DNA of 64,000 bases, taken from an uncultured Nitrososphaerota archaeon. Its GTDB lineage: Archaea; Thermoproteota; Nitrososphaeria; Nitrososphaerales; Gagatemarchaeaceae. The stretch is from contig OY969807.1 of NCBI GenBank assembly GCA_963703285.1, forward strand, positions 1,696,001-1,760,000, in the 5' to 3' direction. The number at the start of each line of letters is the position of its first letter. The stretch's first letter is position 1. Below are positions 5,631 through 62,024 of the stretch, piece after piece. A program made the translations under genes and the position numbers. The notes beneath the pieces are model-generated. The model was not told the DNA's origin, did not search any database, and saw only the letters and a list, made by a program, of their open reading frames with translations.

Positions 5631-5801
5631 AGTTTTCAGGCGAGTCGAAACCAGTCCAAATTTATGCGTTGTGGTCGTCCAAACCGATTCGGCGGTTCAT
5701 CGGCTTTGCCCGCCGCCGTCAGGTCCAACCATCTCCCCCGTTGGTTCCCACAGAAACCCAAAACCTATTTACCGGCGAGCCTCGGACCCGGACCGAATTC
5801 C

Positions 5802-6557
5802 TTGCTGTTTACCAAGACCTCTAGCGCAGTCGAGTGGAAAGCCGTTGCATCCGCGATAAAGACACTGGTTGAGGAGGCTACCTTCGAGGCGTCGAGCGAG
5901 GCGCTCATCTTCAGGGCGATGGACCCTTCGCACATAGCTCTCGTCGACCTGATGTGGCCCAACGCCGCTTTCGAGAGGTACGAGTGCGACAAGCCGTTCA
6001 AGTTCAGCATCCGCGTGGAGGACTTCGTGAAGTTGATCGGCAGGACCGATGCCAAGGACAGCATCGAGCTCACTTCGACCGAGGAGGACGCCCTACTCCT
6101 GAGGCTGATGGACGGCTACAAGAGGGAGTTCAGAATCCACCTGATCGAGAGCACGTCCGGGACGGCGCCGCTCCCGAAGCTCGACTTCGACGCGAGCATC
6201 TCCATGAGCAAGAGCATATTCGAGAAGGTTCTCGGCGACATCTCCGTCGTCGCGGACCAGGTAGCGATAAGCGCACTGAAGGACAGCATCTCGTTCGGCG
6301 GCAAGAGCGACATCGGAGCCGCCACGATACAGCTGGACAAGAACGGGGCCGACGTGCTGGAGATGGACGTGAAGGCCGAGGCGAAGGCGTCCTACAACAT
6401 CGATTATCTAGTTTCGATTTCGCGGGCCCTTGGCTCGACCACCGAGACAGTCCTGCTGCAATTCTCCAGCAAGAAGCCGGCGAAGCTGAGCTTCAAATTG
6501 AATGAACAGGGTGCAATAATAAACTACTTTTTAGCGCCGAGAATATCAGATACTTAA
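5802..6557 (+). CDS. pcn: DNA polymerase sliding clamp PCNA
   Basis: LVEEATF, RAMDPSHIALVDL, YFLAPR; probable TTG start at 5802 (ORF track extends to 5664). Confidence 0.95.
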   Translation: MLFTKTSSAVEWKAVASAIKTLVEEATFEASSEALIFRAMDPSHIALVDLMWPNAAFERYECDKPFKFSIRVEDFVKLIGRTDAKDSIELTSTEEDALLLRLMDGYKREFRIHLIESTSGTAPLPKLDFDASISMSKSIFEKVLGDISVVADQVAISALKDSISFGGKSDIGAATIQLDKNGADVLEMDVKAEAKASYNIDYLVSISRALGSTTETVLLQFSSKKPAKLSFKLNEQGAIINYFLAPRISDT

Positions 6558-6571
6558 TATTTCGTACGATT

Positions 6572-8311
6572 TCATCCAATATTTGGAGCACTAGTGTCTC
6601 CGGCCGGCGAGATGAGCTTCTTTCCCTTCTCGTTCAGCTTCTTTATTGCTCCATAGAGCGTATCCAGCTTCTCGTAATACCAGCCCGGTTGTCCACTTCT
6701 GCTTGGGACGAATTTCTCGTCGACGAACCGAAGGTACTCAAGGACATAACCGGCCACCTCGCGTTTGACGATCAAATACGACATCACTTGAGGGAGAATC
6801 GTCCGGAGTACGCCCGAGTTCGCATTGTACTCCCATCTTGTTTTAGTCACCGCATCCCCTCTGCGAGCTAGGTTCACGGTTCCCTCTCCGATAATCTCCA
6901 TCACCTTCACGCAGAAGTCCCGGTTGGAGTTGGTCACGTTGAGCTGCGGCCGATAGAAGTATCCCCTACTGTACGCCGCGTGGATAACCTTGGAGAGGAA
7001 TATCAATCCTTCTCCATCTATCACCCCTGCCAGCCAAGAGCTTTCCTCTTTAGTCAATGTCCTAGTATCCGTCGCTCTTCCACCCCGCCCTCTGTTCTTC
7101 AGGCTCTTCGGCAGCGCAAGCATAGCTGCCATCGTCTCCGGCGACGGGTCCCTCCCTTTCTCGTTCGTCCGCTTGAGCGCCATGTAGAGTGAGTCAGCTT
7201 TCTCGTAGTAACCCGCCGGAACTTCCATGACGCCGATGATTGGATTCGCATCGACGTAAGCAAGGTACTCCAGCATCCTCTCTGCCGCCTCCTTCTTGAT
7301 GAGCAAATGAGGCACCAGCTGCGGCAGCAAACCGCGAAGAACCATGCCTGCTCCCCGATAGCACCATCTATCCTTCCAGTCAAGACGCGTCTCTTTCTGG
7401 AAGTTCACCGACCCCCTTCCGATGACCTCCCTCACCTTCCTCGCAAACTCCTCATTGGAGTTGCTGAGGTTGATGGCGGGGACGTAGGCGAATCCGCGTC
7501 TTCCTTTGGCAGCAGATCCCCTGTTCAACTTCGTTATGAAGATCGAACCCTCTCCATCGATGACTCCTGCCAGCCATTGCCCCTCAACCGCACTCAGTTG
7601 CCTAGGTGGCCCATCCAAGAGTTCCTCTCCGTTCGCTTCATCAACCAGCTTGGATTTGGCGAACCTCCTCCACGACGTGATGTGAATCCCATCCACGAGC
7701 TCGCCCACCGGCTTCTTCGTCTCCACCTGGTCGACGCCGAGTATGGAGAGCTTGTGCACCTCCGAGGGTCTCACCTTGTCGGCGTACTTCACGGGCACAT
7801 AGACAATAAGAGACCGGAAGCCGGTCGTGTAGACATAGCTTTCGAACCCAAAGTCACCATCGACCTTCCCGGATACCCAGTAGAGCTTCTCTGCCTCCAG
7901 CCTCGTTCCTTCTGGGCTTCTGAGCTTCCGCCAAGGGAGTCTGAAAATCAGGTTCGAGCCGAGTTCGCCGTTCTTCTTCGTGTATGTGTGGCCATAGGCC
8001 CTCGCCTGGACTACGCTTGGGTGTGATTCAACCTGCTCTGGCTTCCTCGGCTCCGGCTCTGTTTGGCCATGGGGCTCGTTGTTCTCGTCTCCCGCCTGTT
8101 CTTTCTCAAACCCTCCGAGCGTCGTCTGGACTGTCTCTTCAGACCGTTCGGCTTCCGTCTTACCTTCCGTCCCTTCCGCCCGAGACCCACCATCGCTTCG
8201 AGCCACATCAAAGGCTGGCTCGCCGCCGACCGCCGGGGACGCTACCTCCTTCTCTGAGACCCCTGTTCTCTCCTTGGGGGTCCCTGTCTGGACAGAATCC
8301 TCTTGGTCCAT
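6572..8311 (-). CDS. Free-standing protein with two tandem LAGLIDADG endonuclease domains and an acidic N-terminal leader
   Basis: WLAGVIDGEGSIFI and WLAGVIDGEGLIFL motifs, each followed by a ~130-aa domain (SNSN/TNSN, L..L.P.L..K); no intein termini seen. Confidence 0.88.
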   Translation of the reverse strand: MDQEDSVQTGTPKERTGVSEKEVASPAVGGEPAFDVARSDGGSRAEGTEGKTEAERSEETVQTTLGGFEKEQAGDENNEPHGQTEPEPRKPEQVESHPSVVQARAYGHTYTKKNGELGSNLIFRLPWRKLRSPEGTRLEAEKLYWVSGKVDGDFGFESYVYTTGFRSLIVYVPVKYADKVRPSEVHKLSILGVDQVETKKPVGELVDGIHITSWRRFAKSKLVDEANGEELLDGPPRQLSAVEGQWLAGVIDGEGSIFITKLNRGSAAKGRRGFAYVPAINLSNSNEEFARKVREVIGRGSVNFQKETRLDWKDRWCYRGAGMVLRGLLPQLVPHLLIKKEAAERMLEYLAYVDANPIIGVMEVPAGYYEKADSLYMALKRTNEKGRDPSPETMAAMLALPKSLKNRGRGGRATDTRTLTKEESSWLAGVIDGEGLIFLSKVIHAAYSRGYFYRPQLNVTNSNRDFCVKVMEIIGEGTVNLARRGDAVTKTRWEYNANSGVLRTILPQVMSYLIVKREVAGYVLEYLRFVDEKFVPSRSGQPGWYYEKLDTLYGAIKKLNEKGKKLISPAGDTSAPNIG

Positions 8312-8362
8312 CGCTATGCTCGTCAGAAACCGTCAAAACCCCCACGCGCCTGGTCCGGCTAT

Positions 8363-8437
8363 GTTGCCATGGCAACTTGGCAACATCGTGGCAACTTCTT
8401 GGCAACTTTGTGGCAACATCGCCGCTGGTGTGGCTAC
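8363..8437. repeat. GTTGCCATGGCAAC palindrome plus TGGCAAC heptamer array, copy 1
   Basis: Palindrome 8363-8376; TGGCAAC at 8370, 8378, 8389, 8400, 8411 (last four 11-bp phased); TGGCTAC at 8431. Confidence 0.9.
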
Positions 8438-8456
8438 TTTCTTAGGAATTCTGCAG

Positions 8457-8619
8457 GCTGACGGCCTCTTAGTTCAAAGAGTTCTACGCTTCTTCTGGGC
8501 GGTCCAGTACTCACAATCGGCTCGGCGCATGTTGCCATTCTGGCCGATCTTCGTCGGCACGACGTGAGAAGTTCGGCTTCTCAGGCCGCTCCCTTTGGGG
8601 GCTTTGGACCGTCGTCAGT
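8457..8619 (+). ncRNA. Putative structured RNA or ssDNA element associated with the LAGLIDADG gene, copy 1
   Basis: Outer helix GCTGACGGC/GTCGTCAGT, helix CGGTCCA(8500)/TGGACCG(8605), hairpins 8543-8558, 8565-8583, 8588-8602; conserved in copy 2 with compensatory and G-U changes. Confidence 0.65.
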
Positions 8620-8652
8620 TCTTAGTTTCTAGCAGGAGAATAGCGACTAGCA

Positions 8653-8660
8653 GTATTTAA
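8653..8660 (-). promoter_or_regulatory. Candidate TATA box (TTAAATAC) pointing toward the LAGLIDADG gene
   Basis: Identical octamer at the same position in copy 2 (26825-26832). Confidence 0.45.
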
Positions 8661-8800
8661 CAGGACAAGACTCCATCGCGGGTTCCGTTGCATCTTCGGG
8701 TGATTTGAAGCCGCGTTGCGGATTGGTTATTCATGGCTGTGCGCCTGTCGTGGATAAATTGTTCACAAGGTGTATAACCCGCCCAGAGCACCTTGGCTTG

Positions 8801-9073
8801 ATGACCAGAACGCTTCTCGTGGGTTCATTGGTCATAATCGCAGTCATGTTGGTTGCGTTTGCGATCTCCGTTCCGGTGGTACGAACCTCGTCCCTCGTGG
8901 GAGCCCGACCGTATTGTCCGCAACCTACTGGTGGACTTCTCATTCAGGTTTGCGATAACATAGTTCCTTTGAACGCGCACCATTACGATTCCGTCTCGAT
9001 GGCCATCTTCGGTTTCGGAGCCGCATCCGCAGGAATCTTTGGCTCGGGCTTCTACTACTCATTTTTCTCCTAA
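8801..9073 (+). CDS. Small membrane protein with two Cys
   Basis: N-terminal TM, PVV...C...C...SVSMAIFGFGA; resembles 21194..21532. Confidence 0.6.
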   Translation: MTRTLLVGSLVIIAVMLVAFAISVPVVRTSSLVGARPYCPQPTGGLLIQVCDNIVPLNAHHYDSVSMAIFGFGAASAGIFGSGFYYSFFS

Positions 9074-10093: not shown

Positions 10094-11167
10094 ATGGACG
10101 AAAAGGTCCTCTCCTTCCTCCGCAGGGCCTACCGGGAGCACTACTTCAGGCGCCACGACCTGGTCGAGATCCCTTCTGCCATGGCGTCGAGGGAGTTCGG
10201 CTACATCCCCTTCGATGGCGGGATGGTACGCCACCTCTCCTTCAGGAACCCTGGAGAACTCTTCGCGGAGCTCGTCAGACAGGCGCCGTCCTCGGTATTC
10301 TGCTCCAACGCCGTATATGAGAGGCCCACTCTTCAGATGGACGAGAAGGGGTGGAAGGGGGCCGACCTGATCTTCGACATCGACGCCGACGCGATTCCTA
10401 CCCCGTGCAAGTCCACCCACACCTGGTGGTTCTGCGGCAACTGCCACAAGGGAGGCATGGGCGAGGTACCGTCAAGGTGCCCTTACTGCCGGAGCGAGGC
10501 GGTCGAGCAGATGCACTGGAGCTGCTGGGAGTGCCTCAACGAGACGAAGGTCCACGTGAAACGCCTGACAGGGTTCCTCCAAGACGACTTCGGCATAGAC
10601 CGGGAGAGCATCAGGCTGTACTTCTCAGGAAACAGGGGGTACCACGCACAGATTCATGACGAAAGGTACGAGATGGCGGACCCGCAGATGCGAGGCGAGT
10701 TAGCGAACTACGTGAAGGGGACGGGCCTCAGCCTGAAGGCGCAGGAGAGCGCGCCCGGCCGCACAGACCTTGGCTGGTCACGCAGGACCCGCCTGTTTCT
10801 CGTGACGACCGAGGGGGCCTCCCGCTCGAAGAAGACCCAGAAGCTCGCCAACCAGGTAGTCGCTGCCAACGGGGCGCTGATAGACGAATCCGTCACAACC
10901 GACGTGCACCGGGTCTTCCGGATGCCTGGAACGCTCCACGGCAAGTCTGGGCTGCTGAAGATGAGGGTCGAGTCGCTGGAGGAGTTCGACCCGCAGAGCC
11001 AGCCCGTGGTCCTGAGCGGCGAGCCGATCAAGGTGCGGATATACTACTCGCCCGAATTCGTCCTGAACGGGAGAAGGTTCGGACCGTACGAGTCCTCGAC
11101 GGTCGAGATACCTATTTACGCCGCAGTTTTCCTTCTCGCCAGGGGACTGGGTGAACTGGTCGATTGA
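10094..11167 (+). CDS. priS: DNA primase small subunit
   Basis: REFGY, DLIFDIDAD, YFSGNRGYH, IDESVTTDVHRVFRMPGTLHGKSGL. Confidence 0.97.
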   Translation: MDEKVLSFLRRAYREHYFRRHDLVEIPSAMASREFGYIPFDGGMVRHLSFRNPGELFAELVRQAPSSVFCSNAVYERPTLQMDEKGWKGADLIFDIDADAIPTPCKSTHTWWFCGNCHKGGMGEVPSRCPYCRSEAVEQMHWSCWECLNETKVHVKRLTGFLQDDFGIDRESIRLYFSGNRGYHAQIHDERYEMADPQMRGELANYVKGTGLSLKAQESAPGRTDLGWSRRTRLFLVTTEGASRSKKTQKLANQVVAANGALIDESVTTDVHRVFRMPGTLHGKSGLLKMRVESLEEFDPQSQPVVLSGEPIKVRIYYSPEFVLNGRRFGPYESSTVEIPIYAAVFLLARGLGELVD

Positions 11168-15875: not shown

Positions 15876-16020
15876 CGCTGGTTAACGTGGTCCCCCACCC
15901 TTTATCCATTATTGAAGCATTCTAGTTCCTTTTGTTCCTGCGGTTCTCTCCCTGCGCCCCGTCATCTGGACCAGACTCCTCCCGACCTTCCATAGAAGGC
16001 CGCAAAATCTTTCATCCTGG

Positions 16021-17136
16021 CTATGAAAAGAACGCCAGATACTGGAAGACGGAGAACAGCCCGGCCAGGCCTATGCACAGCACGACGTAGGTTACCTCGA
16101 GCTTCCTTCCCCTCAGCAGCACCGAGTAGCTGAGGAAGACCGGGAAGGCCGGCAGCAACAGCCTCGGGACGGAGAGGGCGACGAAGCCGACCCAGAAGAG
16201 CAGCGGCAGGGTCACCGACAGGCAGTACACGCACAGGAACACCCTGTGCTTGGCGCCCGTCTTGAGAAGGTACAGGGCGCCAAATAGATAGAAAGCCTCG
16301 AAGCAGATGTTCCTCACCAGCCAGTAGGGCGGGGTGAGACGGAGCCCGTCGGCGGCCCAAGGTTGGCAGGTGTATGAGCCGGGGGAGTTGACGCAGAGCA
16401 GGTAGTAGGCCTGCGTCAGCGGGTTCGCGAGTTTCACCCCCCACGGCGCTTCCAGCCTGATGAGGTCGAGATAGGCTCCTGTCTCGGCCCTGAGCCATAG
16501 CACTATCAGCGCACCCGTAACCAGAGGAAGGCCATAGAAGAGCAGGTCCCTCGGGCGCCGCCGGGTATCCAGGAGCGCGACAAGGAAGGAGGGGAGCGTC
16601 CAGGCGAGGTTGAAGAAGGTGAGGATGGCAGCGCTCACGGTAGCCGAGGCAGAAAGCACCCTGTCCTTCATCAACAGCAAAATCGAAGAAGCGAGGAAGA
16701 CGAGGACGACCACGTCTGAATAGGGAATCGTGGTGAAGAGCAGGTAGGTCGGGAAGAGCTCCGCCAGCAGGGCCGTCCTGTAGCCGAAGGCCTTGTACAG
16801 CAGCACCGGGAAGACGAAACTGAGGGCGTTCGTCACCACGTAAGCCGAGACCCACGCGCTGCCCAGCGCGTAGTAGACCGCCCTGATGAGCGCCGGATAG
16901 AGCGGAGAGAAGACATAGGGCGCTGACGGTCCGTATCCCTGGGTCGCGATGATCTGGTAGAAATCGCCGTCCCACTTTGTCGCCATCAGGTGGAGCAGGT
17001 CGGGCGAGGGGTCGAAGGGATAGACCGCGATGAACACGACCACCTTGCCGACCGCCAGAAGGAGGATGAGACGGAGTACCGGGGAAGCCCAGGCGTTCCG
17101 GAGGAGGTGCAGGCTTCGCCCTCCCTTGGAGTCCAT
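16021..17136 (-). CDS. GT-C fold mannosyltransferase-like membrane protein (PIG-V like)
   Basis: WDGDFYQIIATQGY...FSPLYP, many TMs, SVPRLLLPAFP. Confidence 0.75.
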   Translation of the reverse strand: MDSKGGRSLHLLRNAWASPVLRLILLLAVGKVVVFIAVYPFDPSPDLLHLMATKWDGDFYQIIATQGYGPSAPYVFSPLYPALIRAVYYALGSAWVSAYVVTNALSFVFPVLLYKAFGYRTALLAELFPTYLLFTTIPYSDVVVLVFLASSILLLMKDRVLSASATVSAAILTFFNLAWTLPSFLVALLDTRRRPRDLLFYGLPLVTGALIVLWLRAETGAYLDLIRLEAPWGVKLANPLTQAYYLLCVNSPGSYTCQPWAADGLRLTPPYWLVRNICFEAFYLFGALYLLKTGAKHRVFLCVYCLSVTLPLLFWVGFVALSVPRLLLPAFPVFLSYSVLLRGRKLEVTYVVLCIGLAGLFSVFQYLAFFS

Positions 17137-17227
17137 GCCTTACCCCTCCCTGGCTCGGGCATATCTCCATTCAACAACAATCGTCTCGTCCTGAAAGAGT
17201 CTGGAGCCGCTAAGGGTTCTGATTGAA

Positions 17228-17280: not shown

Positions 17281-18486
17281 ATGACGCAGCAACGGCAGGG
17301 AATAGGGACGACCTTGATTGTCGTTGCCCTGGTCCTTGTCATCGTGGTGGGGACGATAGGCTTCGTAATGCTCAACCTTCAATCGCTTCCGCTTCCACGG
17401 ACCACCAGCGACTTGTACTCCCAATCCTCGACGTCCTTGGCGTCCACGACCGGACCGTCAGTGTCTTACTCGACAACCTCGTCTTCGGACCTCAGACTGC
17501 AGGTTACGCTGAATTCCAGCAGCATCCAATCGCAGGAGGAGGTCGCGGTCCAGATAGAGGTGCTCAACCTGCAGAGTCAGAACGTCTCCCTCACGGTCGT
17601 TCCCAACCAGAACATCTCGTCGTGGAACGCAGCGGACTTCTTCTGCAGCGTGAACCCCAGTCGCTCCCTCGTGGGCTTCGCCCTCTTCAGCGGGAACTTT
17701 GCAAGCGGGAACATCTCGGCGGCCGGTTCTCCGCTGCAGCTCGCTGCGTCGTCTGTGGTGTTACCGTGCCTCTACAGCCTGCCCCTGAACGACACCACGT
17801 TCCTTCCGGGCAGCGACAAGACCGTGTCCTTGAGCTACTACGGCCAGACCGAGGAGCCACCCTATCAGGTGACGGCGGAGGTGAACGCGTCCACCGGTTA
17901 CTGCGGCGAATCTCTCACGGCTGGGGCCTGTCAGGGGACCTCGGGGATCCTCGGCTACTGGAGCGCCGGTCTCGTAGGGAACTCGTCGCTGGGCTCCAAT
18001 GACTTCACATACCTTCCTGCCGGAGACTACACAATAGCGGCGATGGACGACTGGGGCCAGACTGTCTACGCTCACTTCGACGTGACGCCTGCCGCGATTA
18101 CGACGACCTCAGCATCGAGCGATTGCATCATCAGCGCGGAGGGCACCGGCTTCTACGTGACCGTGCTCTCCGACTCGGGCCAGCCGATACAAGGAGTCCA
18201 AGTCTCGGGCACCCGGGTCACCCAAGTGAACGACGCGACCTGCCAGCAGGGCATAGGCACGTATGTCACGAACTCCACCGGCAGCGTCCTCATCACCCCG
18301 AACATAGGCAGCTACTACCTGCTCTCCATCATGTACCAAGGCAAGAACTATACAACCAAGGCGCCGATCGAGCCCATGACGACCACCTACGTGACCCTCA
18401 AGGTCCCGTCGGGCAATGTCACAATCAGCGAAGTCTTCGAAGGAGGCTGCCAGACGAACTCCGAAGGAGTCAACTGCCCAGGCTAG
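17281..18486 (+). CDS. Exported Ser/Thr-rich hypothetical protein
   Basis: N-terminal TM; shares a domain (PC...G.YT..A.D..G....F.V) with 20021..21013. Confidence 0.75.
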   Translation: MTQQRQGIGTTLIVVALVLVIVVGTIGFVMLNLQSLPLPRTTSDLYSQSSTSLASTTGPSVSYSTTSSSDLRLQVTLNSSSIQSQEEVAVQIEVLNLQSQNVSLTVVPNQNISSWNAADFFCSVNPSRSLVGFALFSGNFASGNISAAGSPLQLAASSVVLPCLYSLPLNDTTFLPGSDKTVSLSYYGQTEEPPYQVTAEVNASTGYCGESLTAGACQGTSGILGYWSAGLVGNSSLGSNDFTYLPAGDYTIAAMDDWGQTVYAHFDVTPAAITTTSASSDCIISAEGTGFYVTVLSDSGQPIQGVQVSGTRVTQVNDATCQQGIGTYVTNSTGSVLITPNIGSYYLLSIMYQGKNYTTKAPIEPMTTTYVTLKVPSGNVTISEVFEGGCQTNSEGVNCPG

Positions 18487-24848: not shown

Positions 24849-26537
24849 TCATTTCTCATCGCGTGGAGAACGCCCTTGCCCCGCTTTGGGCTTCCTCGAC
24901 CTCAACGGAAATTCGCTCGCCGGCCAGATTTCTGTCGGTCGCGCTCTCCCTCGATAATATCCATTCGAATCAAAGAATGACAGGGCCTTCTCAGCCTCTC
25001 GCCGCTTGTCTCCCTCGAGAAAGGGAAGTATCTCTCGCAGGAGTCGAATCGCCCTAATCCCATATACAGTCTTGCGCCATATCGGCATCAACTCAGGTCC
25101 TCTGTACTTTGCCTTGACGTGGCTCGACAGTCCGACGAGGTTAGAGAACTTGGAGATGGTCGCTGGGTCAGTATTCCCTATCGTCACCTGCGCACTGGTG
25201 GAATCTGAGGCCGAGACATAGCAGCACGCTATGCACCCCTCACCCTGGATTAGCGCTGCCACCCAAGCTCTATGCTCGATGCTCGGGATTATGACTTCTG
25301 GTACGCCCGATTTGCCGTGCGCGACGCCACGAGGGACTGTCGTTGCCAATCCGATCTGCTCAGCAATTAGAGCCGTGTTCGTGCCGCGTCTCTTCGAGCG
25401 TAGTGGAAACTCCTCGCGCGGCCAGACGTCCCCGTTCCTGAACTCACCCCTGTGATAGCCGCGCGGCCCGAAGAACTCCATTGCCTTTCTGGCTTCCCTC
25501 TCCTTCTGTCCCACAAGCCAAGGCAAGACCTCTTGGAGGACTCGCAATGCCCTCAATCCTGCGATGTTCTTGCGCCATTGCGGCTTCCAGTCGTGGTTCC
25601 TGGTTGGTGTCAAAGACGGAGCGACTCCCAGATAGCCGGCCAGCCTGTTGATGGGTCCAGCATCAGTCATCGAGGTGTGCACCTCAAGATATGTCGTGTC
25701 GCTCTCCTTCCTGTAGATGCTCTGAATGCATCCCTCTCCCTGTATCAGGGCTGCTACCCACGCCCGGCCCACCGTCGTCTGGATCACGGTCTCAGGTATG
25801 TCCTGCTGCATAAGGCGGCCGAGGTGCGGCCTCCGTCTCCACTCTTCGGGTGGCTTGATGCCGTGCTTCTTCATATGCCGCCTCATTGCGCCTGGCTGAC
25901 GGTACCCCATCCTGCGGGCCGCCTCCCGGGGATTCTTGCTCGTCCTTACGACGCTCTCGAGGAACGGGGCGAACTCAGGACTCGAGACCAGAGGCCGTAG
26001 CATCGACTCTTCACCATCGGGTCCCTCGACCGCCGACACTCTCAGCGACCGGGAACCACCTGTGGAGTCCTCGCTGATGAAGACCCAGCTGCCCTGCTCC
26101 TTCATCTCCATGAGCTTCGGACTCGCCTTGTAGAGCCAACTCCTGCCCGAACCGAACCGAGCCCTCTCTCCGACGACCAGCGCATCCCGTTCAAGGTGAC
26201 CCAGGTGGAGTATCACCGTCGGCTTGCTCACCCCGAGCTTCTCCGCGAACTCGCTCCGCGTGGTGCCTGCAAGCCGGTCGTCCTCAAGCATCGCCTTCGC
26301 CATCCTGGTACAGCACAGGTCCATCCTCGGGTTCTTTCCGGGTGGGCGCTCTCCTCTGCTCAAGCGACCAGCCAGCTCGTCGGAGCTGATATCCGCCACC
26401 ATTGTCAGGGACCCGGACTCTCGGAGAGCCTCAGAAATGACAGGCTCGCCTCGAACCTCCGGGGCATCGACCGCTTCGGAGACCCCCGCTCCCTGCTTCG
26501 GGGTCTCGTCCTGGACACGGCTGCTATCTTCGTCCAT
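24849..26537 (-). CDS. Free-standing wHTH + HTH + tandem LAGLIDADG protein
   Basis: RSEFAEKLGVSKPTVILHLGHLE (wHTH), REAARRMGY (HTH), two WVAALIQGEGCI motifs; ATG at 26537 aligns with the start of 6572..8311. Confidence 0.85.
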   Translation of the reverse strand: MDEDSSRVQDETPKQGAGVSEAVDAPEVRGEPVISEALRESGSLTMVADISSDELAGRLSRGERPPGKNPRMDLCCTRMAKAMLEDDRLAGTTRSEFAEKLGVSKPTVILHLGHLERDALVVGERARFGSGRSWLYKASPKLMEMKEQGSWVFISEDSTGGSRSLRVSAVEGPDGEESMLRPLVSSPEFAPFLESVVRTSKNPREAARRMGYRQPGAMRRHMKKHGIKPPEEWRRRPHLGRLMQQDIPETVIQTTVGRAWVAALIQGEGCIQSIYRKESDTTYLEVHTSMTDAGPINRLAGYLGVAPSLTPTRNHDWKPQWRKNIAGLRALRVLQEVLPWLVGQKEREARKAMEFFGPRGYHRGEFRNGDVWPREEFPLRSKRRGTNTALIAEQIGLATTVPRGVAHGKSGVPEVIIPSIEHRAWVAALIQGEGCIACCYVSASDSTSAQVTIGNTDPATISKFSNLVGLSSHVKAKYRGPELMPIWRKTVYGIRAIRLLREILPFLEGDKRREAEKALSFFDSNGYYRGRARPTEIWPASEFPLRSRKPKAGQGRSPRDEK

Positions 26538-26554
26538 CAGAAAGCCCTGGGGAA

Positions 26555-26610
26555 GTTGCCATGGCAACTTCTTGGCAACTTTGTGGCAACATCGCTGCTG
26601 GTTTGGCTAT
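26555..26610. repeat. GTTGCCATGGCAAC palindrome plus TGGCAAC array, copy 2
   Basis: Palindrome 26555-26568; TGGCAAC at 26562, 26573, 26584 (11-bp phase); TGGCTAT at 26604. Confidence 0.9.
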
Positions 26611-26629
26611 GTTGTTAGGAATCCTGCAG

Positions 26630-26791
26630 GCTGACGGCCTCTTAGTTCAAATAATTCTACGCTTCTTCAGGGCGGTTCAGCACTCACAATCGGCTCGGCG
26701 CATGTTGCCATTCTGGCCGATCTTGGTCGGCCCGACGTGAGAAGCCAAGCTTCTCATGCCGTTCCCTTGGGGACTTTGGACCGTCGTCAGT
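26630..26791 (+). ncRNA. Putative structured RNA or ssDNA element, copy 2
   Basis: Same helices as 8457-8619; 1-nt indel in a hairpin loop. Confidence 0.65.
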
Positions 26792-26828
26792 TCTTAGTTT
26801 CTAGCAAGAGAACAGCGGCTGGTCGTAT

Positions 26829-27134
26829 TTAACGGAACAAGCTCTGTTGAGGGCTCTGTTCCGTCTCTGGGTTATTTGAATCGCCGTTCCACTTGGGTGA
26901 TGCGCTCAAAATCGTCAGTCTGACTCGCTCCATGAGTCGGCAAAGTTCGTAGTCTCGTTGCGGCTGGATATCGTATCGCTCGCAATGCCTCAGAAATTCT
27001 GTCACAAGTCCAGAGAATTCCTCGGTCAATCTCTCGTATCTCCCTTGCCACTTTAGGGCGAGTTCGATTTCTTGCGCCAATGCCAACTTGAGCTGGTATT
27101 CGCTTGACATAGGGGAATCACTTGTTCCCATCAA
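26829..27134 (-). CDS. Hypothetical helical protein
   Basis: ORF coupled to 27118..27627. Confidence 0.55.
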   Translation of the reverse strand: MMGTSDSPMSSEYQLKLALAQEIELALKWQGRYERLTEEFSGLVTEFLRHCERYDIQPQRDYELCRLMERVRLTILSASPKWNGDSNNPETEQSPQQSLFR

Positions 27135-28855: not shown

Positions 28856-31546
28856 GTGGTCGTGGGGATAGATTCGCCCGCCCGCTACCTCCTGTTGTTG
28901 CTTGCGCTCTTAGTGTTAGCGCCATACGTCGCTGACGTTCATGCACAACCAGCTCGCCCCGTCGAGGTCGCCACGCAGGTCTGCAGCAGCTGCCAGCCGC
29001 TCGAGCCGGATGGAGAACAGGTCCCGCCGCCACCTCGGGAGATGTCCAATGGCCCTTCTACCAGCTATGACGAGCAGTTGGGCATGACTTTCACGCAGAG
29101 CTTCACGTCCATGCTGTACAACTCAACCGCGGTTGAGCAGAGCGACTCGTCCTCAGGCGTGGGACCTGGCTACCTTCTCAACGGCCTTTCGAACACAGGT
29201 TACTGGTATCAGGTCGGTTTGGATTACAATTGGATTTACACTTCCGGCGGATACGACGCCGGATTCCACATGGGCTATGAGGTTTTCAACCCGAGTGGGA
29301 ATTCCATCTTTCCAATCGTGTGTTGCGGCGGTCTCCTCTCCTTCTCTGGTCCTGTAAACGAGGGTGATGTTGTCGCGCTGAACCTGTACTTCACAAGTTC
29401 GGGCCAGGTGGTATTCCTTGCCAAGGACTATAACACCGGTGCGTACGCCTCAGAGACGTACAGCGCCGAAGGAGCCACCTACTTCACAGGCCTGGACCAA
29501 ACCGCGAACTCATACGGTTTCTTCACCGGGCTTATGACTGAATGGTATCACCCGAGCGCATACTATGGTGGCGAGCAGGAGGTGACCTACTCCTCGACTT
29601 TTGCCCTCTCTTCCGCGTACATGTGGATGGACGAGTTCGAGTCCAACGGTCAGACCAACGGTACGTTGCTCTTTTCGGCGGGATCAGGTCTCCTCTCTTA
29701 CTCTGACCCGACACAACTGCAGGCGTTCTCTTCCAATGGCGCGACCGAGTACAGTGATGCGTACGAGTTCCTGACGGGGGCGTTGAGTCAAATTCCCCTG
29801 ACCGTGAGCTACTCCGTCCAAGGGAGCGACATCGGCTACTCGCCGCCGATTCTCACCTACGTCACAGGCGGTGAGACAAAGACTTCCACTCTTGGGACAT
29901 CGTCGTCTGTCTTCAACTGTGATCCTGGAAGTAGCTGGTCGGTTCAGCCCATGCTCGGAGGCAGCAACTCCAGCGAAAGATGGGAGACGGTTCAGGGGAC
30001 CTCCGGGACGGCTTCGGTGCCACAAGCCCTAGCCTTTGTCTACTACAACCAATACTATCCGAGTTTCCAGATTACAGCTGCCGCACAGACCAAGTTTGAT
30101 AGCGACATGACGCTCGTCATCACAGCGACTCAGTTCGGGACGCCGGGTACGTCAGTCTGCCAAATCATCACCTCGTCGGCAGCAACGGCCAGCTGCCAAG
30201 CCTGGGTCGATGAAGGCGGGCTGGTCGTCTTCCCTCAATTCCTGAACAACCCACCAGCAGACACGCGGTGGCAAAACGCAGCCGGCGCGCTTTCTGCGAG
30301 CCAGGTTCTTTCCTCTTCTAGTGTGACCGCCGACTACTACGAACAGGTCTTGGAGGCTGTCTCATACTCGATATCCGACACTACGCCCGGATACTCGGTC
30401 CCGACTCTCGATTACACGAGCCTTGGATATCAGTTGACAAACTATCCGATGTCGACGACCCCGTCGCCGGTCTGGCTCGACTACGGCACCACGTGGATGG
30501 TGACTCCCAACCTGCTAACGGGCTCAACTTCGACCCAGAGGTGGGAAGGCGCCTCCGGCACTTCGGGCCTCGCTTCACAGGGTGGGACCATCAATCCGGA
30601 ATACTTCCATCAGTTCCTCACCACTCTCAGCTATTCGGTCGTCGGAGGAGGGTCACCGGGGGCGCCGGTCATCAACGAGACTGCGTTCGGAATAACTGCT
30701 GAGGACACCCTGACATCCTCGCCTCTGCCCACATGGGTCGACTCCGGATCCATCGTGAACCTCCCATCGTCGTTGTTCCCTTCGAGCGCCTCAGAGAGGT
30801 GGGCTACGAACTCTATGCTCACCATCGAGGTCGATTCGGCCGTCACGGAGTCGGCTGTCTACCAGCACCAGTATTACGTGGAAGCCGAGAGTGCTATGAC
30901 GGGTGGGGGGTCCGTCTCGCCGGGGAGTCGGTGGTACGACGCGGCGAGCATCCTGAGCCTCATTGCCACTCCTTCCCCGAACTGGAGTCTCGGCACTTGG
31001 GTTGGAACTGGATCTGGCTCGTACTCCGGAACCAATGCCAGCCTTGCCTTCGAGGTGGAGGGGCCGGTTAACGAGACGGCGGTGTTCTATCCGGGCATCA
31101 ATCTGACGGTGGAGGCGGGCGGTTCCGTAACCTACAGTTATGGCACGACCTCGGGCCAGGCGGCACCGGGACAGCGGGTTCTTTACGTTCCGCCGGGAAC
31201 GAACGTTACCCTCGTCGCAAATCCGTCGTCCCTGCTCTACTCCTTCGGAGGGTGGGCCGCCTCGCACTCGCCTTCAGCATCGACGATGGTGATCACCGTC
31301 AGCGCGCCTACGACCACAGAGGCGAAGTTCTCCTACAACCTACTTACGATCGGGGCGCTGGTGGGAGCTGTCTTGGTCATAGCGGCAGCCATTGTTATCT
31401 ACAGAGCCAGAACGCAAGGACGGAGACATCGAGCACAAGAAAGGAAAACTTTCCATACTGGAACCTTAGAAGCTAGGTCTTCTGGCCGGAATCGATCGAC
31501 TTCACGAGTGCCATCAACTCGCTCGCAAGTCTCTTGTGCATGGTGA
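28856..31546 (+). CDS. Large cell-surface protein with repeated beta domains and a C-terminal TM anchor
   Basis: Signal peptide, repeated SYSV.G...P / ERW...YYxQY units. Confidence 0.8.
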   Translation: MVVGIDSPARYLLLLLALLVLAPYVADVHAQPARPVEVATQVCSSCQPLEPDGEQVPPPPREMSNGPSTSYDEQLGMTFTQSFTSMLYNSTAVEQSDSSSGVGPGYLLNGLSNTGYWYQVGLDYNWIYTSGGYDAGFHMGYEVFNPSGNSIFPIVCCGGLLSFSGPVNEGDVVALNLYFTSSGQVVFLAKDYNTGAYASETYSAEGATYFTGLDQTANSYGFFTGLMTEWYHPSAYYGGEQEVTYSSTFALSSAYMWMDEFESNGQTNGTLLFSAGSGLLSYSDPTQLQAFSSNGATEYSDAYEFLTGALSQIPLTVSYSVQGSDIGYSPPILTYVTGGETKTSTLGTSSSVFNCDPGSSWSVQPMLGGSNSSERWETVQGTSGTASVPQALAFVYYNQYYPSFQITAAAQTKFDSDMTLVITATQFGTPGTSVCQIITSSAATASCQAWVDEGGLVVFPQFLNNPPADTRWQNAAGALSASQVLSSSSVTADYYEQVLEAVSYSISDTTPGYSVPTLDYTSLGYQLTNYPMSTTPSPVWLDYGTTWMVTPNLLTGSTSTQRWEGASGTSGLASQGGTINPEYFHQFLTTLSYSVVGGGSPGAPVINETAFGITAEDTLTSSPLPTWVDSGSIVNLPSSLFPSSASERWATNSMLTIEVDSAVTESAVYQHQYYVEAESAMTGGGSVSPGSRWYDAASILSLIATPSPNWSLGTWVGTGSGSYSGTNASLAFEVEGPVNETAVFYPGINLTVEAGGSVTYSYGTTSGQAAPGQRVLYVPPGTNVTLVANPSSLLYSFGGWAASHSPSASTMVITVSAPTTTEAKFSYNLLTIGALVGAVLVIAAAIVIYRARTQGRRHRAQERKTFHTGTLEARSSGRNRSTSRVPSTRSQVSCAW

Positions 31547-61842: not shown

Positions 61843-61937
61843 GGGCCGGTAGTTCAACCTGGTAGAACGCCCGCCTCGCACGCGGGAGAGAGCAAACGAG
61901 CTCCCCGTTGCCGGGGGTTCAAATCCCCCCCGGTCCA
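61843..61937 (+). tRNA. tRNA-Ala(CGC) with a 21-nt intron at position 45/46 (61889-61909)
   Basis: Acceptor GGGCCGG/CCGGTCC-A, anticodon arm CCCGC-CTCGCAC-GCGGG, T arm GGGGG-TTCAAAT-CCCCC, BHB-like motif. Confidence 0.93.
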
Positions 61938-62024
61938 CTTCGTTTTCGCTCCTAAAGCTTCGGCTTCCGTTTATATCCTGATTGACCGCCAAATCCTCAG
62001 ACCTGCGGTCGGTGGTCTCCGTCT

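What the first reader, a model, noticed from the sequence alone, without database searches (positions are those of the whole stretch)
8457..8619. The folded domain shows compensatory changes, and its G-U pairs place the structure on the + strand, opposite the nuclease gene
Seen on +: closing helix GCTGACGGC/GTCGTCAGT; CGGTCCA/TGGACCG (copy 2 CGGTTCA, a C-G to U-G change); GCCGAT-cttc-GTCGGC (copy 2 GGCCGAT-cttg-GTCGGCC); TGAGAAGT-tcg-GCTTCTCA (copy 2 TGAGAAGC-caa-GCTTCTCA); GCTCCC-ttt-GGGGGC (copy 2 GTTCC-cttg-GGGAC, a C-G to U-A compensatory pair). Many differences fall in loops or keep pairing. Every non-WC pair is G-U on + but would be A-C on minus. TCTTAGTT follows both strands of the closing helix. 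Inference: a divergently transcribed ncRNA, or a folded ssDNA site (origin or recombination substrate). The only clear TATA points the other way, so both strands may be used.
Basis: partly seen in the sequence, partly recalled or inferred. Interest (0 to 1): 0.8.

Follow-up and report, generated by a model that had tools for sequence, protein, structure and literature searches.

The report
Structured leader of archaeal nuclease genes
A conserved, hairpin-rich stretch of about 165 bases lies between a promoter and a homing-endonuclease-like gene in a soil archaeon; it is most likely a regulatory leader of that gene's own messenger RNA, not a separate RNA on the opposite strand.

Summary
The folded domain is real. 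It occurs twice in the window (8457-8619 and 26630-26791) and in 8 distinct copies overall, all in one genus of Gagatemarchaeum-like Nitrososphaerales. Each copy lies upstream of a nuclease-like gene whose product starts MDQEDS or MDEDSS. Hairpins P3 and P4 and helix P2 carry a few compensatory changes.

The claim that G-U pairs place the structure on the + strand does not hold. Fold z-scores (-2.20 on +, -2.17 on -) and structure conservation (0.51 on both) are equal. The + excess of wobble pairs (39 vs 17 cells) is close to what base composition gives (1.42:1). Other helices carry their wobbles on the - strand, and one loop is GNRA on - in 6 of 8 copies.

The only promoter-like box in all 8 copies, GTTAAATA(C), matches this genome's own TATA consensus in the gene's direction. 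It lies 296-380 nt before the ATG.

Best reading (about 0.5): a promoter, a long structured 5' leader with a P3/P3' alternative pairing, and a TGGCAAC iteron operator, which together control a free-standing homing-endonuclease-type gene. No RNA data were available, so the strand remains inferred. It matches no Rfam family. Interest is moderate.

The parts
8654..8661 (-). TATA-like box of copy 1. It reads GTTAAATA(C) on the minus strand and is the only promoter-type motif in the module.
   Evidence: It is invariant in all 8 copies. In this genome TTAAATA occurs 34 times and its reverse complement 7 times in the -50..-15 window of 1736 crude ORFs. It is the only hit to the 11 promoter-enriched hexamers in all 8 copies, with 0 hits in the + direction.
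8625..8634 (-). Conserved TGCTAGAAAC (minus strand), about 21-30 nt downstream of the TATA-like box. This is the inferred transcription start region of the leader.
   Evidence: It is conserved in the 8-copy alignment. The start site itself is inferred from spacing; no RNA data exist.
8457..8619 (-). Folded core of copy 1. It holds P1 (8457-8465/8611-8619), P2 (8500-8506/8605-8611), P3 (8543-8548/8553-8558), P4 (8560-8563 and 8565-8572 with 8576-8583 and 8585-8588) and P5 (8588-8593/8597-8602). An alternative helix P3' pairs about 8515-8521 with 8543-8549 and shares an arm with P3. The strand is assigned by promoter logic, not by pairing.
   Evidence: A covariance model scores this copy at 207.8 bits.
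8529..8537 (-). TGGCAACAT motif inside the core, inverted relative to the iteron array. On the minus-strand RNA it lies in the loop of P3' and is complementary to the GUUGCCA repeats.
   Evidence: It is conserved, with small variants, in all 8 copies.
8361..8419 (.). Iteron array of copy 1. Five TGGCAAC repeats start at 8370, 8378, 8389, 8400 and 8411, the last four 11 bp apart. It also holds the perfect palindrome GTTGCCATGGCAAC at 8363-8376.
   Evidence: The pattern gives 12 matches in the window against 0.41 expected, and 0 of 100 shuffles reach 12. In the 2.25-Mb genome, exact iteron pairs and the palindrome occur only at the two loci.
8256..8311 (-). Start codon (8309-8311) and the first ~19 codons, which are conserved together with the module. 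They contain the hairpins UGGAC/GUCCA (8306-8310 with 8289-8293) and GGGACCCC/GGGGUCUC (8277-8284 with 8256-8263).
   Evidence: The second hairpin has G.U on the mRNA strand in 4 of 8 copies and a C-G to U-A change in G014 (read).
6572..8311 (-). Type-1 gene, 579 aa. It has a disordered N-terminus, a beta-barrel middle domain (aa ~95-200) and two LAGLIDADG domains of the I-CreI/I-MsoI type.
   Evidence: Pfam PF00961 scores 34.7 bits against a cut-off of 23.1. The best PDB sequence match is I-MsoI at 3.9e-09. See also the alignment and the fold results.
26826..26833 (-). TATA-like box of copy 2 (GTTAAATA on the minus strand).
26630..26791 (-). Folded core of copy 2.
   Evidence: It is 90% identical to copy 1 over query bases 50-321. 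The covariance model scores it at 210.9 bits.
26553..26592 (.). Iteron array of copy 2, with the palindrome GTTGCCATGGCAAC at 26555-26568, that is 18-31 nt before the ATG.
24849..26537 (-). Type-2 gene, 562 aa, with an ArsR/Lrp-like helix-turn-helix and LAGLIDADG-like domains. It is only 21% identical to the type-1 protein but shares the upstream module and the first ~20 codons.

Best explanation
The 163-nt domain is the core of a 296-380-nt transcribed 5' leader of the nuclease-like gene, read on the minus strand, the same strand as the gene.

Reading in the gene's direction, the unit is:
- a canonical TATA-like box, GTTAAATA(C);
- a conserved start region, TGCTAGAAAC;
- three adjacent hairpins, P5, P4 and P3, enclosed by long-range helices P1 and P2;
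- a helix P3' that competes with P3 for one arm and holds a UGGCAAC motif in its loop;
- four to six GUUGCCA/TGGCAAC repeats, mostly 11 bp apart, ending in a perfect 14-bp palindrome;
- a start codon and early codons that sit in hairpins.

The proposed working is as follows, and all of it is inferred. The iterons are DNA operators for a sequence-specific binder. That binder may be the nuclease's own non-catalytic part or a separate regulator, and it holds transcription down. The leader RNA, through the P3/P3' choice and the occluded start codon, limits read-through or translation. Together they keep a potentially genome-cutting endonuclease at a low, controlled level.

Shown here: the anatomy, its conservation, its restriction to these genes, the pairing statistics and the promoter orientation. 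Inferred: the transcription start, the identity of the binder, the switch and the regulatory outcome.
For: 1. Promoter. This genome's promoter window (-48..-18 of 1736 crude ORFs) is enriched for TTAAAT (50 in the gene direction against 14 for the reverse complement), TAAATA (58 against 11) and AAATAC (29 against 4). TTAAATA occurs 34 times against 7 for TATTTAA. In all 8 module copies the only hits to the 11 enriched hexamers are at the distal box, in the gene's direction, and none points along +.

2. No box near the ATG. TATA-type hexamers in this genome normally start 26-40 nt before the start codon. Here the distance is 296-380 nt, so the core lies inside the predicted transcript.

3. Minus-strand RNA features.
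- The P4 lower stem is fully paired on minus in 8 of 8 copies (G.U 7, A-U 1), whereas on + it is A.C in 7 of 8.
- The local hairpins pair 95.2% of 168 cells on minus.
- The P5 loop is GCAA in 3 copies and GCGA, GAGA and GAAA in one each, so GNRA in 6 of 8.
- P3' pairs 85.7% of 56 cells with 3 pairs changed on both sides, reached by 14 of 500 shuffles. Its end pair is G.U 5, A-U 2, G-C 1 on minus.
- The minimum-energy folds of the two window copies on minus choose P3' in one copy and P3 in the other.

4. Conservation runs on into the first ~20 codons of genes whose proteins are only 21% identical. This fits an mRNA-level unit.

5. Iterons. They are locus-specific: only these two places in 2.25 Mb. 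They travel with the core and not with the protein. Seven type-1 loci without the core show no covariance-model match; in six of them no TGGCAAC occurs and the seventh has a single one. In G014 a TTGCCATGGCAAC palindrome also abuts the TATA-like box.

6. Precedent. T-even phage homing endonucleases combine operator autorepression with RNA hairpins that block translation (PMC2988022, passages read).
Against: - There are no RNA data. No RNA run was listed, so neither the transcription start nor the strand is observed.
- The long-range helices P1 and P2 pair better on +. Wobble cells number 17 G.U against 5 A.C in P1 and 6 against 4 in P2. The best contiguous closing helix beats shuffles at p<=0.03 in 4 of 8 copies on +, against 1 of 8 on -.
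- In G010, P3 keeps a U.G on + that is a C.A mismatch on -.
- Covariation rests on few events, about 6-8, in 8 related sequences.
- A T-rich stretch about 25-35 nt before the ATG of type-1 genes could be a second, proximal promoter. In that case the iterons would be upstream operators and the core would not have to be in the main mRNA.
- The start-codon hairpin never varies, so it is untested.
Confidence: 0.5

Rival explanations
1. One reading: an independent non-coding or antisense RNA on the + strand. It would be closed by P1 and P2 and end in the T-rich stretch TTCTTAGTTTCT. It might act on the leader of the nuclease mRNA, in the way a type I toxin-antitoxin pair works. In that case both strands would matter.
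For: - P1 and P2 pair better on +: 84.8% of cells against 77.2%, and 39 wobble cells against 17.
- The closing helix beats shuffles on + in G000a, G000b, G002a and G002b (p 0.004-0.026), and on - only at p 0.004-0.094 for the same copies.
- All differences between the two window copies keep pairing on +.
- A T-rich run follows the 3' arm in all copies.
Against: - No promoter-type hexamer points along + anywhere in the 8 modules, and no A/T-rich box lies 25-35 nt before 8457.
- Fold z-scores and structure conservation are equal on both strands.
- The + strand's composition alone predicts 1.42 G.U per A.C.
- The P4 lower stem, P3' and the GNRA loops favour minus.
- The 5' partner of the closing helix sits at different places in different copies, at offsets 5 to 47. 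This weakens the case for one conserved P1.
Confidence: 0.17
2. A DNA-level element. It could be a set of protein-binding palindromes and iterons, such as a centromere-like or operator array with looping between the inverted site in the core and the array. Or it could be a site that works as folded single-stranded DNA, such as an origin or a recombination substrate.
For: - The iterons are mostly 11 bp apart, about one helical turn, and include a perfect 14-bp palindrome.
- An inverted TGGCAAC site lies about 110 bp away inside the core.
- In G014 a palindrome lies beside the TATA-like box.
- Support for pairing is equal on both strands, as expected if neither RNA strand is special.
- PCNA and the primase small subunit flank copy 1.
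Against: - Stems change sequence while staying complementary. P3 occurs as GCCGAT/GTCGGC, GCCGGC/GCCGGC and GCCGCA/TGCGGC, and P4 shows A-T to G-C. This is unusual for protein half-sites.
- Long-range helices enclosing 100-150 nt cannot form in duplex DNA.
- The two Orc1/Cdc6 genes lie at 1,641,799 and 2,140,638, about 62 kb or more from either copy.
- No Rep, integrase or transposase gene lies beside either copy.
- The two copies are 18 kb apart with housekeeping genes between them.
Confidence: 0.15
3. The RNA is a partner of the nuclease rather than only a leader. It could be a maturase-like or guide-like ribonucleoprotein, in which the constant leader RNA binds the constant N-terminal part of proteins that carry different nuclease domains.
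For: - The same module and N-terminus precede 2xLAGLIDADG, HNH and HTH-LAGLIDADG-like proteins.
- The RNA lies directly upstream on the same strand, as omega-RNAs do for IscB (recalled, not tested).
- LAGLIDADG proteins can bind RNA as maturases (recalled).
Against: - Full-length orthologues work without the module. G005 has a 130-bp intergenic region. Seven of 11 genomes with the type-1 gene have no module at that locus.
- The middle domain is missing in G001 and in the type-2 proteins, which still carry the module.
- Only the first ~20-45 residues are shared, and they look disordered.
- No variable guide-like segment is apparent.
Confidence: 0.08

Closest known systems
Multi-layer control of T-even phage homing endonuclease genes: I-TevI/II/III operators, and RNA hairpins over the ribosome-binding sites of I-TevI, segB and mobE
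   Same: A homing-endonuclease-type gene is preceded by binding sites at or near its promoter. Stable RNA structure includes the translation start. The presumed purpose is to keep the nuclease low. (PMC2988022, passages read.)
   Different: Here the host is an archaeon and the leader is 300-380 nt with five or more helices, not one hairpin. The operator is an 11-bp-period iteron array lying downstream of the promoter. No similarity to a homing site is known. Nothing has been tested experimentally.
Attenuator or riboswitch-type leaders with mutually exclusive helices
   Same: Three segments can pair 1:2 (P3) or 2:3 (P3'), and both alternatives carry compensatory changes. The unit is a long leader on a regulated gene.
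   Different: No ligand pocket, terminator or anti-terminator logic can be shown. There is no Rfam match. The element is confined to one genus.
Iteron operators such as R1 parC/ParR or the MraZ box array (recalled from general knowledge, not tested)
   Same: Short direct repeats at about one helical turn lie in front of the regulated gene and occur nowhere else in the genome.
   Different: No partition ATPase or MraZ homologue lies nearby. The binder is unknown. The middle domain's best structural matches are only PhS018 (Z 7.2) and PG0164 (Z 6.6), both of unknown function.
HEARO / omega-RNA of IscB (OMEGA systems)
   Same: A structured RNA of 150-300 nt is encoded just upstream of, and on the same strand as, a nuclease gene. 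One family member here has an HNH domain.
   Different: The proteins have no RuvC or PLMP domains. No Rfam HEARO match appears even at E<=10. There are no transposon ends, and the element has two fixed chromosomal places.
Group I introns with LAGLIDADG genes, including the archaeal ones of PMC6125680 (search listing and start of the abstract seen)
   Same: A LAGLIDADG gene lies next to a multi-helix RNA, and the host phylum is the same.
   Different: The element is intergenic and not inside an rRNA, tRNA or protein gene. No Intron_gpI match appears at E<=10. The domain has about 165 nt and no recognisable P3-P9 core.

Membership tests
Any Rfam 15 family | Covariance-model score at or above the gathering threshold | tested here: not met
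   In the whole window the only hit is a tRNA. For 8250-8800 at E<=10 the only hit is CRISPR-DR26 at 16.1 bits against a gathering score of 39, E=6, which I treat as noise.
Group I intron | Conserved catalytic core (Rfam RF00028) and insertion within a host gene | tested here: not met
   No RF00028 match appears at E<=10. The element lies between a TATA-like box and a start codon in an intergenic region.
Archaeal bulge-helix-bulge intron | Two 3-nt bulges separated by a 4-bp helix at the element's borders | tested here: inconclusive
   I read the P1 arms of copy 1 by eye on both strands. They form a continuous 6-9 bp helix without the two bulges. No dedicated tool was run.
HEARO / omega-RNA with IscB or TnpB | Neighbouring RuvC-containing IscB or TnpB protein, and a match to the HEARO RNA model | tested here: not met
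   Pfam and NCBIfam find only LAGLIDADG and helix-turn-helix domains. There is no Rfam match.
Iteron-type replication origin | Repeated initiator-binding sites | tested here: met
   Four to six TGGCAAC repeats per copy, 12 in the window against 0.41 expected.
Iteron-type replication origin | Adjacent initiator gene (Orc1/Cdc6 or Rep) | tested here: not met
   The Cdc6_C family matches only at 1,641,799 and 2,140,638 of the genome, while the window spans 1,696,001-1,760,000. No Rep-like Pfam hit occurs among the 24 neighbouring ORFs scanned besides the two nuclease-type genes.
MITE or other small mobile repeat | Many dispersed copies with terminal inverted repeats flanked by target duplications | tested here: not met
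   There are two copies per genome at most, always upstream of the same gene families. TCTTAGTT lies inside the left arm and outside the right arm, so it is not a flanking duplication.
Homing-endonuclease regulatory leader (T-even phage type) | RNA structure that includes the translation start | tested here: inconclusive
   UGGAC/GUCCA includes two bases of the AUG in 7 of 8 copies, and 4 bp of it remain in G002a. It never varies, so pairing is neither supported nor refuted.
Homing-endonuclease regulatory leader (T-even phage type) | Operator bound by the endonuclease at its own promoter | not testable with these tools
   Iterons are present, and in G014 a palindrome abuts the TATA-like box. 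Binding needs an experiment.
LAGLIDADG homing endonuclease (the gene, not the RNA) | Two LAGLIDADG motifs with the acidic residue retained | tested here: met
   PF00961 scores 34.7 bits against a cut-off of 23.1. The protein matches I-MsoI and I-CvuI. WLAGVIDGEGSI occurs twice in the alignment. Nuclease activity was not tested.

The most novel reading that the evidence does not exclude
The leader is more than a cis-regulator. It would be a new class of nuclease-associated structured RNA that forms a ribonucleoprotein with whichever nuclease domain (LAGLIDADG or HNH) is fused behind the shared N-terminus. It would then act as a maturase-like or guide/scaffold-like partner, analogous in layout to omega-RNA with IscB but with LAGLIDADG enzymes. 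A variant of this reading has sense and antisense RNAs from both strands forming a toxin-antitoxin-like control of a chromosomal homing endonuclease.
Probability: 0.08. Interest if true: 0.85.

Novelty: new variant of a known kind. Interest (0 to 1): 0.42.

Why it matters
Long structured leaders are unusual in this genome. Where a TATA-like box can be recognised, it sits 26-40 nt before the start codon. My searches of the held paper library found no paper on the control of free-standing homing-endonuclease-type genes in archaea.

If the reading is right, it adds an uncatalogued candidate cis-regulatory RNA family with a possible two-state switch. It also gives a compact case of promoter, operator array and leader being kept as one unit while the nuclease domain behind it is exchanged: LAGLIDADG, HNH or an HTH-LAGLIDADG-like protein, at a fixed place between PCNA and primase.

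It is also a cautionary case. Wobble-pair counting on two copies pointed to the wrong or at least an unproven strand, because base composition and the way the helices were drawn bias the count.

Tried and rejected
- RNA evidence: the look-up of sequencing runs listed no RNA holder for 7900-8800, so read laying could not be used.
- Rfam: no family matched at the gathering threshold or at E<=10.
- Viral contigs: the core pattern gave 0 matches.
- Earlier notes of this scan: nothing by place, sequence or words.
- RNAalifold on 5 sequences gave no clear covariation on either strand.
- RNAduplex between the flanks allowed long internal loops and was too noisy. I replaced it with a contiguous-helix test.
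- Small ORF in the core: one 35-codon ORF on minus in copy 1 is broken by a stop in copy 2 (read), so I rejected it.
- Bulge-helix-bulge intron, MITE, chromosomal origin and group I intron: see Membership tests.
- G005 as an 'empty site'. Its 130-bp spacer contains CTGACGGCCTC next to CAGAATTCCT. This resembles a junction across the core, but part of that similarity maps to the spacer after the iterons in G014. I could not define clean insertion borders.
- Middle-domain fold: it gave only middling matches (Foldseek E 0.03; VIA Z 7.2 and 6.6) to two proteins of unknown function. It is therefore no evidence for DNA or RNA binding.
- Literature: no paper on this element was found with the searches 'LAGLIDADG + Thaumarchaeota' (4 papers), 'Gagatemarchaeaceae' (13 papers) and 'free-standing homing endonuclease + archaea' (16 papers); only listings and the starts of abstracts were seen. 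The search for thaumarchaeal promoter consensus returned unrelated papers, so I derived the consensus from the genome itself.

Full report
**What is at the coordinates**

- P1 is GCTGACGGC (8457-8465) with GTCGTCAGT (8611-8619).
- P2 is CGGTCCA (8500-8506) with TGGACCG (8605-8611).
- P3 is GCCGAT-cttc-GTCGGC (8543-8558).
- P4 is TGAGAAGT-tcg-GCTTCTCA (8565-8583).
- P5 is GCTCCC-ttt-GGGGGC (8588-8602).

TCTTAGTT follows both P1 arms. A second copy lies at 26630-26791.

The domain is part of a larger conserved unit. On the + strand, left to right, this unit holds:
- the start codon of a minus-strand gene (8311 in copy 1, 26537 in copy 2);
- TGGCAAC repeats, mostly 11 bp apart, that include the perfect palindrome GTTGCCATGGCAAC (12 matches in the window against 0.41 expected);
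- the folded core;
- GTTTCTAGCA;
- TATTTAAC (8654-8661 and 26826-26833);
- an imperfect inverted repeat.

**The genes and the organism**

Gene 6572-8311 (minus strand, 579 aa) has two LAGLIDADG domains of the I-CreI/I-MsoI type. Gene 24849-26537 (minus strand, 562 aa) has an ArsR/Lrp-like helix-turn-helix and LAGLIDADG-like domains. The two proteins are 21% identical. They nevertheless share the upstream unit and their first ~20 codons.

Copy 1 lies between PCNA (5664-6557) and the primase small subunit (10094-11167). Ordinary housekeeping genes fill the 18 kb between the copies. Titles of matching records place the genome among Gagatemarchaeum-like Nitrososphaerales.

**Relatives**

- BLAST found the unit in 3 of 22 other species of the genus and in 0 of 18 genomes outside it.
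- A pattern scan found 4 metagenome stretches and 4 genome records.
- A covariance model built from 7 sequences matched 5 of 97 genomes of the family. All 5 are in the genus (4 of 22 plus the window's own), and 0 of 74 genomes elsewhere matched. Stricter filters applied in that search.
- The viral contig collection gave 0 matches.

After removing duplicates there are 8 distinct copies: G000a, G000b, G001, G010, G002a, G002b, G014 and the metagenome locus L006. Their core identity is 55-94%.

All 8 copies sit upstream of genes that begin MDQEDS, MDEDSS or a close variant. The type-1 locus keeps the same gene order, PCNA, nuclease, module, primase, in G000, G001, G002, G014 and L006. The nuclease part varies: two LAGLIDADG domains, the same without the middle domain (G001), or an HNH domain (L006 5823-7100).

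The module is optional for both gene families.
- The type-1 gene occurs in 11 of 401 genomes of the order. Seven of those loci show no model match, the best being 9.3 bits at E 1.1 with filters off.
- Six of those seven loci contain no TGGCAAC at all; one (L027) has a single TGGCAAC.
- G005 has only a 130-bp spacer to the primase gene.
- Of 20 type-2 loci, only 2 carry the module.

In the window's own 2.25-Mb genome, iteron pairs and the palindrome occur only at the two loci. One pair with a single mismatch lies elsewhere.

**Is the structure selected?**

Yes, modestly. All 16 fold z-scores, for 8 copies on both strands, are negative, from -0.7 to -4.1.

Six pairs changed on both sides, a count reached by 5 of 500 shuffles.

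Specific compensations are:
- P3 as GCCGAT/GTCGGC, GCCGGC/GCCGGC (G002b) and GCCGCA/TGCGGC (G014);
- P4 with A-T changed to G-C in G002b;
- P2 with G-C changed to A-T at two positions in G002a and G014.

I also found an alternative helix, P3'. It uses the 3' arm of P3 (as read on minus) and a segment about 27 nt further on, and it encloses the inverted TGGCAAC motif. It pairs 85.7% of 56 cells, with 3 pairs changed on both sides, reached by 14 of 500 shuffles. The minus-strand minimum-energy folds of the two window copies pick P3' in one copy and P3 in the other.

The number of independent events is small, and the sequences are related to each other.

**Which strand?**

Evidence for +:
- Over 8 copies there are 39 G.U against 17 A.C cells on +, with 17 against 5 in P1.
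- The best contiguous closing helix beats shuffles at p<=0.03 in 4 of 8 copies on + and in 1 of 8 on -.

Evidence against that inference:
- The structure was drawn on the + strand of one copy.
- The + strand of the core is T-rich and A-poor, so composition alone predicts 1.42 G.U per A.C, and 2.0 in copy 1.
- Thirteen of the 39 cells are a loop-closing pair of P3 and a P5 pair that disappears in the 4-bp tetraloop register.
- The 5' partner of the closing helix differs between copies.
- Mean z is -2.20 on + and -2.17 on -, and the structure conservation index is 0.509 on + and 0.51 on -.

Features specific to minus:
- The P4 lower stem is G.U in 7 copies and A-U in 1, where + has A.C in 7 of 8.
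- The end pair of P3' is G.U 5, A-U 2, G-C 1.
- The P5 loop reads GCAA in 3 copies and GCGA, GAGA and GAAA in one each, so GNRA in 6 of 8. On + these would be UUGC, UCGC, UCUC and UUUC.
- A hairpin in codons 10-19 has G.U on the mRNA strand in 4 of 8 copies.

Pairing therefore does not decide the strand.

**Promoter logic**

I derived the promoter signal from the genome itself. Upstream of 1736 crude ORFs there is an A/T peak at -40..-26. The enriched hexamers there are TTATAT, TTAAAT, TAAATA, TATATA, AAATAC and CTTAAA. TTAAATA occurs 34 times in the gene direction, against 7 for its reverse complement. These boxes start mostly 26-40 nt before the start codon.

In all 8 modules, the only hits to the 11 enriched hexamers are at the distal box in the gene's direction. 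None points along +. The box lies 296-380 nt before the ATG. The conserved TGCTAGAAAC follows it by about 21-30 nt. In G014 a TTGCCATGGCAAC palindrome abuts the box.

The predicted transcript therefore runs on the minus strand through the core and the iterons into the gene. No RNA run was listed, so this could not be checked.

**Interpretation**

The best-supported reading is a promoter, leader and operator unit of a free-standing homing-endonuclease-type gene. The iterons would act as DNA operators, because they are spaced about one helical turn apart, include a palindrome and are locus-specific. The leader RNA would add a second layer through the P3/P3' choice and the hairpins over the start.

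This parallels what is known for T-even phage homing endonucleases, which combine operator autorepression with hairpins that block translation (PMC2988022, passages read).

The binder is unknown. The middle domain of the type-1 protein models as a beta-barrel (pLDDT 75.7). Its best matches, PhS018 and PG0164, are of unknown function and score only middling values.

Rivals that remain open are a + strand or two-strand RNA, a DNA-level element and an RNA partner of the nuclease. A chromosomal origin is unlikely, because the Orc1/Cdc6 genes lie 62 kb or more away. Group I intron, HEARO and MITE readings fail their tests.

**Verdict**

The strand inference is not supported. The object is a lineage-restricted, uncatalogued structured leader module. 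It is a new variant of a known kind and of moderate interest.

Noticed in passing
L006 5823-7100 (+) compared with window 6572-8311 (-): At the same place between PCNA and the primase gene, one relative carries an HNH nuclease domain instead of two LAGLIDADG domains. The N-terminus, middle domain and upstream module in front of it are the same. G001 lacks the middle domain. This looks like nuclease-domain swapping in a free-standing homing-endonuclease-type gene.
   Followed up: partly
L020 931-1359 (-) and 2-952 (-): In G002 the type-1 gene appears as two overlapping ORFs in different frames. The middle domain is present twice (compare P0002, 610 aa). This may be a frameshift, or a duplication with a new start.
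   Followed up: no
L024 2846-2975 (G005): A full-length orthologue (58% identity) has no module. Only 130 bp separate it from the divergent primase gene. The spacer contains CTGACGGCCTC, the reverse complement of the module's GAGGCCGTCAG, next to CAGAATTCCT. This hints at a past deletion or rearrangement across the core.
   Followed up: partly
window 7598-8029 (-), aa 95-238 of the 579-aa protein: The middle domain models as a six-stranded beta-barrel. Its best structural neighbours are Pyrococcus PhS018 (2glw; Z 7.2, rmsd 3.0, 83 residues aligned) and PG0164 (2d9r; Z 6.6). Both are of unknown function.
   Followed up: partly
window 8250-8740 compared with 26480-26900: The two modules within this genome are 91% identical in the core. 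That is closer than either is to the module in front of the orthologous gene in another species (73-86%), although their genes are only 21% identical as proteins. This suggests gene conversion or a recent copy between the two loci. In G002 the two modules are only 69% identical.
   Followed up: partly
window 61843-61938 (+): The tRNA-Ala(CGC) gene is 96 nt long, about 20 nt more than a standard tRNA. This is consistent with an intron.
   Followed up: no
window 8801-9073 (+): A small ORF of about 90 aa with hydrophobic stretches, and with its own A/T-rich boxes upstream, lies next to copy 1 only. It is not part of the module.
   Followed up: no
genome position 1506713-1506730 (outside the window): This is the only other near-match to an iteron pair in the genome (TGGTAACATATTGGCAAC, one mismatch).
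   Followed up: no
window 28856-31546 (+), 15962-17170 (-), 17281-18486 (+): These large ORFs (896, 402 and 401 aa) have no Pfam match at E<=0.001.
   Followed up: no
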